Origin: Octopus vulgaris
Taxonomy: Eukaryota
NCBI GenBank assembly: GCA_951406725.2
Contig: OX597817.1
Span: 43,834,001-43,898,000, forward strand
Reading direction: 5' to 3'
Length of the DNA stretch: 64,000 nt
Shown here: piece by piece, positions 13,297 through 61,199 of the stretch
Position numbering within the stretch: position 1 is the stretch's first letter
Layout: every line of letters starts with the position of its first letter
Notes under the pieces: model-generated
Databases searched by the model: none
The model's input: only the letters and a program-made list of their open reading frames with translations
Told to the model about the DNA's origin: nothing
Made by a program: the position numbers and the translations under genes

Positions 13297-13326
13297 TTGG
13301 AAAAACATGCATTGGACCAAACTCTT
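13297..13326 (-). CDS. Nrxn: Candidate 30-nt neurexin SS4 microexon (EEFGPMHVFP)
   Basis: ttttcattttatctcttcttctttacttccatttcag|AAGAGTTTGGTCCAATGCATGTTTTTCCAA|gtacgt; very strong acceptor, good donor, phase 1-1, open; TGCATG about 115 nt into the downstream intron. Confidence 0.55.
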
Positions 13327-33300: not shown

Positions 33301-34848
33301 TTAGTTATTGCAATCTACAATGAAATCTTAAAGTATGTGATGTATGTCATCTAATCTGAAAATATCTGAATGATTCATAGCATACTTTTGTTCAATAAAG
33401 AAATTCTTAGCTATAATTAGTGTAGTCAACACTGATTAAAATATATACACTTCCACATCTATTTATAAAATAAAAGTTGGCACTTTTACTTATTTGACAT
33501 GAATGTGAATGAAACCTTTTTCATGAAACTTCAAGAAACCTAAAGTCTTTTGTATTAAAGATGAATATGATACAGCATAGAAGTTAGGTAAAAAGAATTA
33601 CAAAGTATTTAAGGCATTTGGCTTTTAAAGAGTTATGAATTCATTAATTTACATATGAAATTATTGTTTGTTTTTGTTTTTAGCTTCATACTATCCCAGA
33701 TCAAGCAGACCTACAATCAAAGGCATACCTACTGTGACGGATTTATCTTTTTTCCTGACAGTATCAGTATAAGTTGGTAGGTTATGATTTGAGCAATACT
33801 TGAGTACTATTCTTAGTTGGTCAGGTTAGGATATAGAGGAACTCTCATTGATTCAGTTTGATATATCTACTTGGAGAATTACAAACTGGAAAAATAACTG
33901 CTATTCAGAATTTAAACCAGATTTTACTTCTATGGGTTATTTTTGTACATTTTTTAAATATATATATGTACTATATAAAGGTAAACATTACATTTAAACT
34001 GGAAGACTTTTTTTTTGCATAAATAAACATTTATGCAGTTCATCAAATAGCTACAGTTTTAATGTTGGAAACTTGAAAAAGATAATCAAAATTCTTTTTT
34101 ATCCATTTACAAAATTTTTAATCAATTGAAATTATATTTCCTTTGAAAGTTTGAGGTATTAGAATTGCATAATACCAATATTATATCTAATTCATGTAAC
34201 TATTGTTAATTTTATTTCATATGCCATATTTATGTGTGATAATACTGCTTAAAAATAATGAAAAAGAAAAAAGCTACCTGCACCTGAGAGAAATAGGTAA
34301 ATATTCAGATAAGTTTTAATGGAAGAGGAAGCATTGTCATTGAATTAAAAAGTTCATAAGAAAATGGTTTTAGTAGACTGAATTCTTATCTACTTATTTT
34401 AGTTGATTACTAATAAAATTTATAACCAATTGTGATGTTAATGAGTATTTTGCTAAGTATAAAAGTACAAGCTAATAAGGATCTAAAAATATATGGTTGA
34501 GATAATGGAAACAATATTTTATTAATGAAAATGAAAGTAAAGCCCTGTCGATGAATTTTGATAAACCTGATATACAGTTTAAGGAAGTAGTAATGGAAGC
34601 TCTGGAGTTAATAATGATGCCAATAGTAATAAGTGACTAAAATAATAATGATGATATCGATATAAATAGATGACTGTGATAAAATTTTGAGAATAATGAT
34701 AATTATTTAAGATAACTAATAATAATGAAAATAAGAATGATGAGAACGATGATGATGGTGATGACAATGATTGAGGGAGAAGTCAAGAAATAATACAGCT
34801 ATCAATGGTAAAACGTAACATCTTATATCTGAGGAGAAGTGGATTTAC

Positions 34849-34884
34849 CTGGATCTAGAATTTCCCCAATATACCATGAAGATA
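34849..34884 (-). CDS. Nrxn: Candidate 36-nt neurexin SS4 microexon (VSSWYIGEILDP)
   Basis: Long pyrimidine tract with several TGC motifs (ttctttactttctgttttcttgcttgccaatttgcccag)|TATCTTCATGGTATATTGGGGAAATTCTAGATCCAG|gtaaat; symmetric phase 1, no stop. Confidence 0.55.
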
Positions 34885-36199
34885 CTGGGCAAATTGGCAA
34901 GCAAGAAAACAGAAAGTAAAGAAAAAAAAAGAAAATATCAATATAAGTATATATATTCCTCAAATAACTTTAATGCAAAAACCATGTGAATTTGTTGAAT
35001 GTGAAAAAAGCAAACAACTGGATTAGTCAACGTTTTGAGAGAGAGCGTTAGACGAAAGAAATTTAATTGAAAGATTAATACAATAAAATTTTTAAAAATA
35101 AATACTGATAAATATTATTTACATGACAAAAACTGCATATAGAAATATAAATTAAGTATTTGAGGAATATAAAATAGAAATAATACAATAATAAATAGTT
35201 GTAGCGGTTATATATATATTACCGATACTGACTATTTGTTGGTAATATACACCTGATTTTCTGCACTGTTTTTTAAATAGGGAAAATTTTTATTTTTTCA
35301 CTATTTCAAAATAATGTATATAAAATATTTTACTCATATAGTTAGTTTTATAAAAATGATGATAGTATAAGCTTTTAATTCAGCTGGACATAGCAAACTT
35401 GCACAGATTTTTGCTCTTAGAATTTAGTATGGTTTTCACAGCTAAATTATTAAGTACATAAATTCTAAAATAATGATTTAAATCTTGTCTGTATTTTCTC
35501 CCTTTGCATCAAATTTTTCAATCCAAAAATAAATTCCTTCACAGTAAGTTATGTGTGGTATGTTTTGCTATTTGGATTTCTATGTGAGAATCCTTATTAA
35601 GAAATAAATAAATATTCTGTTGAAAATTGTAGACAAACTTTCATATCAGTGAATTTTATAAAATAATTAAACACTCATCTTTTCCTTTATCATAGTTGTC
35701 TATTTTAATGAATTTGAGAATAGTCTAAAATGTGAAACATAATCTTCAGAATTCTTTTATATGCAATTTGTTCTTCATACAGCATATTAAAAGAAACTAT
35801 ATGTGTTTTAGTATCTTTTAGTTGTTGATCAGTTAATTTAACTATGAAACACATAGTGAAGGGTAAGTGTAAATATGTCAAAACAATTGTGATTAAAAAC
35901 GTTTGTTATACAAAAAGACTATAGAAACCATTAAAAAGTCAAAACGTAGCACTTGAATAAACTATTATGTATTTCACTAAATATATAATGGTTTAGTGTT
36001 TAATACGTTTATTAGTAAACAAAAGTTCTGAATGTATGCTTTTGTAAAGGTGACTGAAATCAGTTTCTATGCAGATATATCAATGTGACTAAGAGACTAT
36101 CCAAAATTTCCCATGTATTTGTTGTACAGAGGGAATAACTTAGTCAGCATACTCACATAAAGGACTATTAGCAAATAGTGGTTGGTGACAATTAGTTAC

Positions 36200-56829: not shown

Positions 56830-57001
56830 CGTCTGGATGTTTTGGCTGTGGTTTATAGTTGTCTACCTGGATGGTTGAATTTGCACCATTTCGTGTAAAA
56901 CGGACTACATGGTATTCCCCATCATTTACCTTATGGTAGACTTCCCCCACTGGGTGGTCTGCAGTGCCCATGTTATATACAACAAATATGTTTCCATCCA
57001 C
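56830..57001 (-). CDS. Nrxn: Neurexin coding exon, middle of LNS6, ending at the splice-site-4 (SS4) position, phase 0 to 1
   Basis: ttttcag|GTGGATGG...CCAGACG|gtaagt, 172 nt, in frame with the previous exon. Translates [57 protein letters not shown](G); compare neurexin [23 protein letters not shown]...ERYPAG. Confidence 0.96.
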
Positions 57002-59235: not shown

Positions 59236-60497
59236 CAGGGGTTGGACAAAATAATGGAAACACTTAGCATCATAGCATAATTTTATATTTCAAATAGCTA
59301 TAAAGCCGTCAAAAGCTTGTTTATTCTTATGTTTTTTTAAATTTATTATTAGTGTTGCTTAATATGTTCTTCTAAAATTGCTATTTATTTTCAGATATCA
59401 TCAGAAAAAAGTAATTAAAATTCATTAAAATGACAGATGTATTGGACTTTCCAAGAGGTCAAATTGTTGGTGCTCGAATGGCAGGCACTAGCTTAACGAA
59501 AACAGCCAAAATGTTTGGTGTATCAAGAAGTTCTATCTCTAAAGTAATGATAGCCTTTGAGAAATAGGGAGAAACCTCCTCATTGAAGCAAAACTCCTGA
59601 AGAAAACCAGAACTTTCAGATAGGGACCATCAAATTCTTACACGAATTGTTAGAAAGGATCACAAAAGTACAGCTCCCAAAATTACTGCAGAGCTTAATG
59701 ACTACCTTAAGAACCCAGTTTCCACAAAAACCGTGCACCAGGAGCTGCACAAAGCCAGATTTCAATGGAGGGCTGTAATCAGAAAACAACTACTTTCAAA
59801 AACAAATGTTGCAAAGCATTTAGAGTGGAGTAAAAACCTACAGAATTGGTCCTGCGAGCAGTGGAAGAATGTTATTTTCTTGGACAAATCAACCACCAGC
59901 TGAGTATACATGTGGAGACAGCCAAAAGAAGCATTTGAACCAGACTGCCTTCTTCTAACTGTTAAACATGGAGAAGGATCTGTGATGATCTGGGGGTGGG
60001 GTTATATCTTGGAAATATGCCGGCCCAATGGTTTCCCTTCATGGCAGAATCAATAGTCAAGACTAGTTAAGCCTTTTATCTGATCAGATTCATCCTATGG
60101 TTGCAGAACTGTTTATGGAGTGAAACAGTCTTTCAGGATGATAATGCACCAATTCACACAGCTAAAGTTGTTACTGAATGGCATGAGGAACATTCTAGTG
60201 ACGTTGAACATCTTATCTGGCCACCACAGTCCCCAGATCTCAATATTATTGAACATTTATGGTGCATTTTAGAAAAACAAGTAAGGAGTTGATATCCTCC
60301 ACCATCATCACTACAAGAACTGGAGACTGTTTTAGCTGAAGAATGGACAAAAATTTCTTGGGAAGCAATTCAAACTTTGTACAAGTCTACACCGCGTAGA
60401 ATTCAAGCTGTAATTACTGACAAAGGTGGTTCTATCCCATATTAAAATAAATTTGTTTGAAATTTTAAGGTGTTTCCATTATTTCGTCCAACCTCTG
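59236..60497 (+). mobile_element. Full-length decayed Tc1/mariner DNA transposon (DD36E spacing)
   Basis: 28-bp TIRs (CAGGGGTTGGACAAAATAATGGAAACAC; 2 mismatches on the right) flanked by TA on both sides; 1262 bp. Confidence 0.95.
59430..60445 (+). pseudogene. Disrupted Tc1 transposase
   Basis: MTDVLDFPRGQIVGARMAG...; WKNVIFLDKS; TVKHGEGSVMIWG; FQDDNAPIH...WPPQSPDLNIIEHLW; several in-frame stops and frameshifts. Confidence 0.9.
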
Positions 60498-61020: not shown

Positions 61021-61199
61021 CAATTCTGCTTCCAAATAGTCATCTGAATCTTTACTTTGAACTCGAACAAGAACGGCATCTTTTTGTTTTGTCTTTAATC
61101 CGAAAGCGAGGAGGTCTTCCGTTCTGTCTTTACGTTTCTTCGCTGGATAGGTGTACTGAAGAAGGCCAGGATTGGGGCCGAAATGGTATGTTGTGCTTT
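61021..61199 (-). CDS. Nrxn: Neurexin coding exon, N-terminal part of LNS6 (laminin-G) domain, phase 1 to 0
   Basis: Minus strand gtgattag|AAAGCACA...GCAGAATTG|gtaaga, 179 nt, preceded by a T-rich tract. Translates (E)STTYHFGPNPGLLQYTYPAKKRKDRTEDLLAFGLKTKQKDAVLVRVQSKDSDDYLEAEL, matching the vertebrate neurexin LNS6 start as I recall it ([54 protein letters not shown]). Confidence 0.95.

What the first reader, a model, noticed from the sequence alone, without database searches (positions are those of the whole stretch)
34849..34930. 36-nt microexon candidate with a UGC-rich acceptor (SRRM/eMIC-like signature)
Seen: a ~45-nt AG-free pyrimidine tract with three TGC motifs precedes the CAG; donor CAG|GTAAAT; peptide VSSWYIGEILDP(G); a local CpG cluster lies at ~35030-35055. 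Known: UGC motifs near the 3' splice site mark neural microexons activated by SRRM3/4-type eMIC proteins. Its W...LDxG ending loosely echoes the vertebrate insert ending (EWLLDKG), which could be coincidence.
Basis: partly seen in the sequence, partly recalled or inferred. Interest (0 to 1): 0.7.

Follow-up and report, generated by a model that had tools for sequence, protein, structure and literature searches.

The report
Octopus neurexin splice-site-4 microexon pair
This is a real, optional 36-base exon in an octopus synapse-adhesion gene (neurexin); with a second 30-base exon it sits at the same spot as the well-studied vertebrate 'splice site 4' switch but has unrelated sequence, so octopuses likely evolved their own version of that switch, probably turned on by neuronal splicing factors.

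Summary
Confirmed as a real exon. 34884-34849 (minus strand) is a 36-nt, frame-preserving cassette in the neurexin LNS6 domain, in the intron that holds vertebrate splice site 4 (SS4). Its peptide is identical in public models of two Octopus species: present in 8 of 15 octopod isoforms, absent from 7, so it is alternative and already annotated. The peptide is not detectably related to the vertebrate insert (shuffle p=0.40). Decapod crustaceans carry a third, different optional insert at the same junction. The eMIC signature holds: three UGC, 72 AG-free bases, and an eMIC domain is encoded in the genome. An 18-YCAY cluster just downstream points to Nova as co-regulator or rival. Neural specificity, eMIC dependence, squid conservation and effects on ligand binding are untested. 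Earlier notes of this scan found neurexin microexons in a sea urchin, none at this place. Ten literature searches found no paper on this exon; an Aplysia paper that I recall reporting an SS4 insert could not be read.

The parts
34849..34884 (-). Microexon A, 36 nt, phase 1-1, VSSWYIGEILDP, first cassette at the neurexin SS4 junction
   Evidence: in 8 of 15 octopod isoforms
34885..34958 (-). 3' splice site of A: 72-nt AG-free zone, 85% pyrimidine tract, TGC at 34903, 34899 and 34891, then CAG
34843..34848 (-). 5' splice site of A, CAG|GTAAAT
34614..34842 (-). YCAY cluster downstream of A (18 motifs in 250 nt, densest +79 to +124), candidate Nova enhancer; partly a decayed CAT repeat
35022..35055 (-).
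13297..13326 (-). Microexon B, 30 nt, phase 1-1, EEFGPMHVFP(S); CAG|AAG tandem acceptor gives a 27-nt form; no TGC within 40 nt of its acceptor
   Evidence: in 7 of 15 octopod isoforms
56830..57001 (-). Upstream exon, first half of the LNS6 core, ends ...KPQPKHPD G| (phase 1)
61021..61199 (-). Neurexin exon after EGF3 (start of LNS6)
34278..34283 (-). Unverified candidate 6-nt cassette (ctctcag|GTGCAG|gtagct); in none of the isoforms examined
   Evidence: absent

Best explanation
This is a genuine optional 36-nt microexon of octopus neurexin at the splice-site-4 junction of LNS6, likely born independently of the vertebrate SS4 exon, likely included in neurons through an eMIC-domain Srrm protein acting on its UGC acceptor, and predicted to add a flexible loop that would tune ligand (most likely neuroligin) binding. 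Shown: exon, frame, position, alternative use, pairing with a second 30-nt cassette, acceptor anatomy, presence of eMIC and Nova-like genes. Inferred: the exon is skipped by default because it is short and lies in a 74.4-kb intron between two GTAAG/TACAG-flanked exons; eMIC recruits early spliceosome factors to its acceptor; Nova on the downstream YCAY cluster may help. Inferred from vertebrates: an insert at this site weakens neuroligin binding by crowding the interface. If right, the control is opposite to vertebrates, where STAR proteins make neurons skip the exon. My odds per step: real alternative exon 0.97, independent origin 0.8, eMIC contribution 0.6, altered ligand binding 0.55.
For: Peptide identical in O. 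sinensis X1/X6/X7 and O. bimaculoides X1/X2/X3/X6/X7, absent in 7 other octopod isoforms. Same junction as the vertebrate insert, and every insert starts with a residue from a G-initial codon, as a shared phase-1 intron requires; the honeybee gene has an intron at site 4 (PMC2570956, passages). No similarity to vertebrate or decapod inserts (p=0.40, 0.75); no insert in 23 gastropod, 10 spider and 7 insect proteins. Acceptor features match those listed for eMIC targets: long AG-free zone, UGC near the AG, long pyrimidine tract, median 31 nt (PMC8797185 section 10). TGC within 20 nt of the AG in 3 of 19 acceptors of the gene: A (three), the 27-nt SS2 microexon and one skippable exon. SRRM_C (PF15230) on two exons of G000:C25, model positions 14-55 (32.4 bits, cut-off 27) and 57-67 (12.9 bits, below cut-off alone). 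One 443-nt contig of run X12 (RNA by guess) matches 34650-34885 and stops at the acceptor with 29 unaligned letters, while a contig of X20 runs on across it; this fits splicing to the upstream exon with the downstream intron still in place, but the 29 letters were not displayed. AlphaFold: LNS6 intact (mean pLDDT 86.8), insert a low-confidence loop. Vertebrate SS4 effects and STAR control: passages of PMC10084454, PMC6856630, PMC9812575.
Against: No tissue-resolved inclusion data; no test of eMIC dependence. The triple UGC is not significant against a dinucleotide-keeping shuffle (P=0.07), and UGC is neither strictly needed for SRRM4 response nor helped by extra copies (10.1101/2024.09.17.613571 section 10). 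Fly eMIC targets have short flanking introns; here they are 21.9 and 21.5 kb. No CTAAY branch point inside the AG-free zone; the nearest is at -142. The eMIC exons were not shown to join a cwf21-bearing Srrm234 gene: the nearest cwf21 hit is 1.5 Mb away. Microexon B has no proximal UGC. Reported SS4 effects on neuroligin affinity may be under tenfold, and NRXN3 with the insert binds neuroligin-1 better. The AlphaFold alignment had gaps under the insert, which favours a loop. The isoforms are predicted RefSeq models; that they rest on RNA junctions is my inference.
Confidence: 0.55

Rival explanations
1. Same real exon, but Nova bound to the downstream YCAY cluster is the main activator and the UGCs are incidental.
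For: 18 YCAY in the 250 nt after the donor, against 0-8 at 18 other donors of the gene and a mean of 4 per bin; 7 of 1760 bins in 226 kb of octopus DNA reach 18. The published Nova cluster pattern covers 132 of 250 nt, next best 55 (microexon B) (pattern from PMC8379844). Downstream binding enhances inclusion in mouse and fly (PMC3165201, passages). A Nova-like gene is in the genome (best PDB hit Nova-1, E=3e-47), with two similar loci seen.
Against: The cluster is partly a decayed CAT repeat, common here; dinucleotide shuffle P=0.022. Nova-bound introns are usually spliced first, whereas the one informative contig retains that intron (weak). Does not explain the acceptor anatomy.
Confidence: 0.2
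2. The octopus, decapod and vertebrate inserts descend from one ancestral bilaterian SS4 cassette exon that diverged beyond recognition and was lost in many lineages.
For: Identical junction and phase in three phyla. The SS2 insert of the same gene is shared across molluscs and arthropods, so old cassettes exist. I recall, without having been able to read it, that Aplysia neurexin has an insert at site 4 (Choi et al. 2011).
Against: Lengths 36+30, 57-63 and 90-93 nt and no detectable similarity; absent from 23 gastropod, 10 spider, 7 insect and 6 cuttlefish-cluster proteins, though annotations can miss microexons.
Confidence: 0.12
3. The exon is real but a low-level, nearly neutral inclusion, or a loop that lowers folding or surface delivery, with no effect on ligand choice.
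For: Insert is low-confidence in the model; the Argonauta and O. vulgaris database proteins and all 6 cuttlefish-cluster proteins lack it.
Against: 12 of 12 residues are identical in two species and the window; frame and both splice sites are kept; it is in the longest isoforms of both species. Flank conservation, the proper control, could not be measured.
Confidence: 0.11
4. A chance pseudo-exon or annotation artefact.
For: The gene models are predictions; junction letters were not seen directly here.
Against: Called with the same boundaries in two species' annotations, alone and joined to B; top candidate in a blind scan; contig break at the acceptor.
Confidence: 0.02

Closest known systems
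Vertebrate neurexin SS4/AS4 cassette exon (NRXN1-3, 90 nt; PDB 2R1B, 3MW2, 3MW3)
   Same: Same domain (LNS6), same junction and phase, frame-preserving, optional.
   Different: Two cassettes of 36 and 30/27 nt instead of one of 90 nt; no detectable sequence similarity; UGC acceptor and YCAY cluster suggest activation, while vertebrate neurons skip SS4 through SAM68/SLM1/SLM2; the insert-dependent ligand cerebellin and LRRTM are described as vertebrate-limited.
eMIC/SRRM3/4-dependent neural microexons (PMC8797185; 10.1101/2024.09.17.613571)
   Same: Short, multiple of three, long AG-free zone, long pyrimidine tract, proximal UGC; eMIC domain encoded in the genome.
   Different: Very long flanking introns (unlike fly targets), no CTAAY within the AG-free zone, added downstream YCAY cluster; dependence untested.
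Decapod crustacean neurexin insert at the same junction (Homarus, Panulirus, Petrolisthes, crab models)
   Same: Optional insert at the SS4 junction in an invertebrate: 22 of 31 decapod isoforms carry it, 9 do not.
   Different: 19-21 residues, basic, single cassette by protein sequence; unrelated to A.
Aplysia neurexin splice variants (Choi et al. 2011, PMID 21555073)
   Same: Molluscan neurexin; I recall a report of inserts at positions matching vertebrate sites 1 and 4.
   Different: Not held, not read; its insert could not be compared. A review citing it confirms only the neurexin-neuroligin role (PMC3229692, passages).

Membership tests
Neurexin (alpha) gene | LNS/EGF repeat ectodomain, transmembrane segment, PDZ-binding tail | tested here: met
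   Window exons are 100% identical to Octopus neurexin P0034; the rest of the gene maps to G000:C4:43.78-44.08 Mb; best PDB match is LNS6 of neurexin-1
Neurexin SS4 cassette (positional) | Insert between ...P-x and G-x-Q-x-x-x-F-N of LNS6 | tested here: met
Neurexin SS4 cassette (positional) | Frame-preserving phase-1 cassette, alternatively used | tested here: met
Vertebrate SS4 exon (orthology) | About 30-residue insert with recognisable sequence homology | tested here: not met
   12 residues; shuffle p=0.40 end-aligned, 0.12 sliding; A+B p=0.91
Vertebrate SS4 exon (orthology) | Skipping driven by STAR proteins | tested here: inconclusive
   UWAA motifs: 8 upstream and 4 downstream per 250 nt against a background of 5.3; binding not testable
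Vertebrate SS4 exon (function) | Changes binding of neuroligin, LRRTM, cerebellin, latrophilin | not testable with these tools
   No binding assay; LRRTM and cerebellin described as vertebrate-limited
eMIC-dependent neural microexon | Short, frame-preserving exon | tested here: met
   36 nt; fly median 31 nt; longer than the 27-nt vertebrate cut-off that I recall
eMIC-dependent neural microexon | UGC close to the 3' splice site | tested here: met
   -19, -15, -7
eMIC-dependent neural microexon | Long AG-exclusion zone and long pyrimidine tract | tested here: met
   72 nt and 85%; note 4 of 18 other acceptors have longer AG-free zones
eMIC-dependent neural microexon | Strong CUAAY branch point | tested here: inconclusive
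   CTAAY only at -142 and -167, beyond three AGs; weaker candidates at -63 and -57
eMIC-dependent neural microexon | eMIC-domain regulator encoded in the genome | tested here: met
   PF15230 across two exons on G000:C25; link to the cwf21 part not shown
eMIC-dependent neural microexon | Neural-specific inclusion | not testable with these tools
   Runs carry no tissue label and are contigs
eMIC-dependent neural microexon | Inclusion lost without eMIC, gained with it | not testable with these tools
   Needs minigene or knockdown
Nova-enhanced exon | YCAY cluster just downstream of the donor | tested here: met
Nova-enhanced exon | Nova binding and dependence | not testable with these tools
   Nova-like genes present; no CLIP or knockdown

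The most novel reading that the evidence does not exclude
The SS4 intron of neurexin is a hotspot where vertebrates, decapods and octopods each invented a ligand-surface switch. Octopods built a combinatorial two-microexon code (none, A, B, B minus 3 nt, A+B) with separate control: A by eMIC plus Nova, B otherwise, with polarity opposite to vertebrates. A may act as a decoy copy of the preceding strand (it resembles the vertebrate end of the upstream exon, shuffle p=0.001, one of 14 post-hoc tests) and gate a partner unknown in vertebrates, giving octopus neurons a cell-type-specific synaptic splice code from a single neurexin gene.
Probability: 0.2. Interest if true: 0.78.

Novelty: new variant of a known kind. 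Interest (0 to 1): 0.48.

Why it matters
SS4 is the best-studied splice switch of synaptic adhesion, and a 2025 review still calls extensive neurexin splicing exclusive to vertebrates (PMC12665717, passage), though honeybee work already qualified this. Octopus neurexin is optional at SS2- and SS4-equivalent sites, at EGF3 and in the stalk. Unrelated inserts at one junction in three phyla would be a clear case of convergence at a synaptic ligand surface, testable with a minigene and a binding assay. The interest is limited because the exon is already in public gene models, both candidate regulators are known, and an SS4 insert may already be published for Aplysia.

Tried and rejected
Homology to the vertebrate insert ending: rejected. 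Repeat origin: one match in the genome, itself (the search skips simple repeats). RNA evidence by tissue: no RNA holder listed on record (20 holders in 7 studies, RNA only by guess, no tissue). Of 7 distinct runs laid, X8 and X4 had no contig on the exon and laid nothing for X12, X10, X13 and X17, not even the X12 contig seen; contigs drop variants, so these blanks say nothing. X20 differs by one letter and one gap over 394 nt, too close to test conservation. Squid or cuttlefish conservation: 0 of 6 full-length cuttlefish-cluster proteins have an insert (15 of 20 members listed); no genome was searchable, so this is not absence. A degenerate pattern for the peptide in metagenome contigs gave 1 hit inside a long AT-rich open frame without splice sites, taken as chance. 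The search of 1.84 billion representatives never ran, so Nautilus, bivalve, annelid, echinoderm and Aplysia isoforms are largely unsampled. A second fold with 5 vertebrate rows that aligned A to the preceding strand gave mean pLDDT 51: no verdict on strand swapping. No complex prediction was run; the pair is a textbook one. Literature: 10 searches found no paper on this exon; 'neurexin+octopus+microexon', 'eMIC+microexon+octopus' and 'ApNRX' returned 0. Choi 2011, Torres-Mendez 2019 and Koehnke 2010 are not held; their texts and supplements, and public exon databases, may list this exon or an equivalent. The one supplement file of PMC8797185 had no hit for Nrx-1, neurexin or Octopus.

Full report
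Observation. The minus strand at 34884-34849 reads as a 36-nt exon between CCCAG and GTAAAT, phase 1, giving VSSWYIGEILDP and then G. TGC occurs at -19, -15 and -7; the AG-free zone is 72 nt and the tract 85% pyrimidine. Among 1547 YAG sites in this part of the window 3 have three TGC in -25..-4, and among the 40 pyrimidine-rich ones only this site does. The count is significant against a base shuffle (P=0.00045) but not a dinucleotide shuffle (P=0.07). The CpG cluster is three CpGs, uncommon (4 of 2133 bins) but without shown meaning.

Gene. Two window exons (61199-61021, 57001-56830) encode the start of neurexin LNS6 (Pfam Laminin_G_2; best PDB match LNS6 of neurexin-1; 96-98% identity to cephalopod neurexins). 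The gene spans G000:C4:43.78-44.08 Mb; the next-best locus matches at about 31-39% identity. The next coding exon, GEQMSIFNN, starts at C4:43816427, outside the window. The intron between them is 74.4 kb.

The exon is real and optional. Of 15 octopod proteins covering the site (14 from a 26-member cluster of which 15 were listed, plus Argonauta), 4 have A alone, 4 have A followed by a second insert EEFGPMHVFPS, 2 have the second alone, 1 has it three bases shorter and 4 have none. A is identical in O. sinensis, O. bimaculoides and the window. The second insert is a 30-nt exon at 13326-13297 with a CAG|AAG tandem acceptor, which explains the short form. These are predicted RefSeq models; that they rest on RNA junctions is my inference. 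In run X12 one 443-nt contig matches 34650-34885 and ends there with 29 letters that do not fit, while an X20 contig continues through the acceptor to 35130. The upstream exon ends in G, so 29+1 letters would be the 30-letter overlap expected at a branch of a 31-mer graph. This fits a molecule spliced at A's acceptor with the downstream intron still present, but the letters were not displayed and the run's RNA status is a guess.

Position. Vertebrate neurexin-3 reads HYPT|30 residues|GRQLTIFN; octopus reads KHPD|A and/or B|GEQMSIFN. All inserts begin with G, A, V, E or D, as a shared phase-1 intron requires. Cuttlefish-cluster genomic frames also break at this point, and the honeybee gene has an intron at site 4 (PMC2570956, passages). 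So the intron is old.

Origin. A does not resemble the vertebrate insert (p=0.40 end-aligned, 0.12 sliding) or the decapod insert (p=0.75). Decapods have their own optional 19-21-residue insert (22 of 31 isoforms); 23 gastropod, 10 spider, 7 insect and 6 cuttlefish-cluster proteins have none (one gastropod model is low-quality at the site). Independent exon births in one intron are the simplest reading, in line with the hotspots described for other splicing programs (PMC8797185, passage). Annotations miss microexons, so loss and age are not settled. By contrast the 27-nt SS2-position microexon of this gene is shared with gastropods and has counterparts in arthropods. One post-hoc test of 14 found A similar to the vertebrate end of the upstream exon (p=0.001; invertebrate ends 0.08, own end 0.21); this is a lead only, and the fold meant to test it gave no verdict.

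Regulation. eMIC targets have long AG-free zones, proximal UGC, long pyrimidine tracts and a median length of 31 nt in flies (PMC8797185 section 10); A meets these. TGC within 20 nt of the AG is found at 3 of 19 acceptors of the gene: A, the SS2 microexon and one skippable exon (that exon's coordinate was one base off there). The genome encodes SRRM_C on two exons 24 kb apart that join in frame through a split serine codon; their link to a cwf21 domain is not shown. Against: long introns, no close CTAAY, and UGC is not strictly required (10.1101/2024.09.17.613571 section 10). New here is a cluster of 18 YCAY after the donor, against 0-8 at 18 other donors; 7 of 1760 background bins reach this, dinucleotide shuffle P=0.022. 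That is the enhancer position of Nova (PMC3165201, passages), and Nova-like genes are present. Vertebrate SS4 is instead skipped in neurons through SAM68/SLM1/SLM2 (PMC9812575, passage).

Protein effect. AlphaFold on 38 sequences keeps LNS6 folded (pLDDT 86.8; TM about 0.8 to beta-neurexins with and without the insert) and leaves residues 124-133 below 50; the alignment had gaps under the insert. In vertebrates the SS4 insert lowers neuroligin affinity, probably by steric clash, blocks LRRTM and latrophilin and enables cerebellin; cerebellin and LRRTM are described as vertebrate-limited (PMC6856630 and PMC10084454, passages). Neuroligin is therefore the likeliest partner affected; neurexin-neuroligin signalling is reported in Aplysia (PMC3229692, passages). 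This step is inferred, not shown.

What is known. The exon is in public models. Ten searches found no paper describing it (listed under Tried and rejected). A 2025 review calls extensive neurexin splicing exclusive to vertebrates (PMC12665717, passage). I recall that Choi et al. 2011 report an Aplysia insert at site 4, that Torres-Mendez et al. 2019 included octopus, and that Koehnke et al. 2010 describe a strand exchange by the insert; none was held, so these are unverified. Also seen as passages only: PMC3084293, PMC8379844, PMC9171784 and the preprint 10.1101/2021.02.24.432780. Earlier notes of this scan report neurexin microexons in a sea urchin and a 31-residue ray SS4 exon, none at this place.

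Verdict. A real, already annotated alternative microexon at the SS4 junction, one of a tandem pair, probably convergent with the vertebrate exon; eMIC control is plausible and untested, with Nova as the main rival. New variant of a known kind; interest 0.48.

Noticed in passing
window 13326-13297 (-): Second SS4 microexon (30 nt, tandem acceptor gives 27 nt), no proximal UGC, second-highest downstream YCAY count (8).
   Followed up: yes
window 34283-34278 (-): Possible 6-nt cassette GTGCAG with a 92-nt AG-free zone, 565 nt downstream of A; in no isoform examined.
   Followed up: partly
window 52648-52595 (-): 54-nt open candidate cassette from the blind scan; AT-rich, in no isoform examined, probably chance.
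   Followed up: no
G000:C4:44012534-44012508 (-), L022: 27-nt microexon LAKDRGLFV at the SS2-equivalent position, TGC at -7, optional in octopods and gastropods, with counterparts in arthropods.
   Followed up: partly
G000:C4:43937759-43937640 (-), L007, and the stalk exons in L009: Annotated isoforms skip the whole EGF3 exon (40 residues) or the two stalk exons (80 residues); EGF3 skipping also occurs in the cuttlefish-cluster and Argonauta proteins.
   Followed up: no
G000:C25:37317480-37317628 and 37341781 onward (L013, L018): eMIC/SRRM_C domain on two exons; a separate cwf21 gene on C27 appears intronless, and another cwf21 exon lies 1.5 Mb upstream on C25.
   Followed up: partly
G000:C5:48.67 Mb, C13:53.10 Mb, C16:31.29 Mb (L025, L026, L033): Three Nova-like genes; the C5 copy has all three KH domains in one 558-residue frame, possibly a retrocopy. 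Only C5 was checked against PDB.
   Followed up: partly
P0012, P0063, P0064, P0072 and cluster members: Decapod crustacean neurexins have an optional 19-21-residue basic insert at the SS4 junction; I did not search the literature for it specifically.
   Followed up: partly
window 45192-43405 (-) and 59415-60445 (+): A 595-codon reverse-transcriptase-like frame of a LINE and broken Tc1-like transposase frames inside neurexin introns (labels from recalled motifs).
   Followed up: no
L005:2778-2689: A degenerate 30-codon copy of part of the next exon lies in the intron just upstream of it (63% identity, one stop).
   Followed up: no
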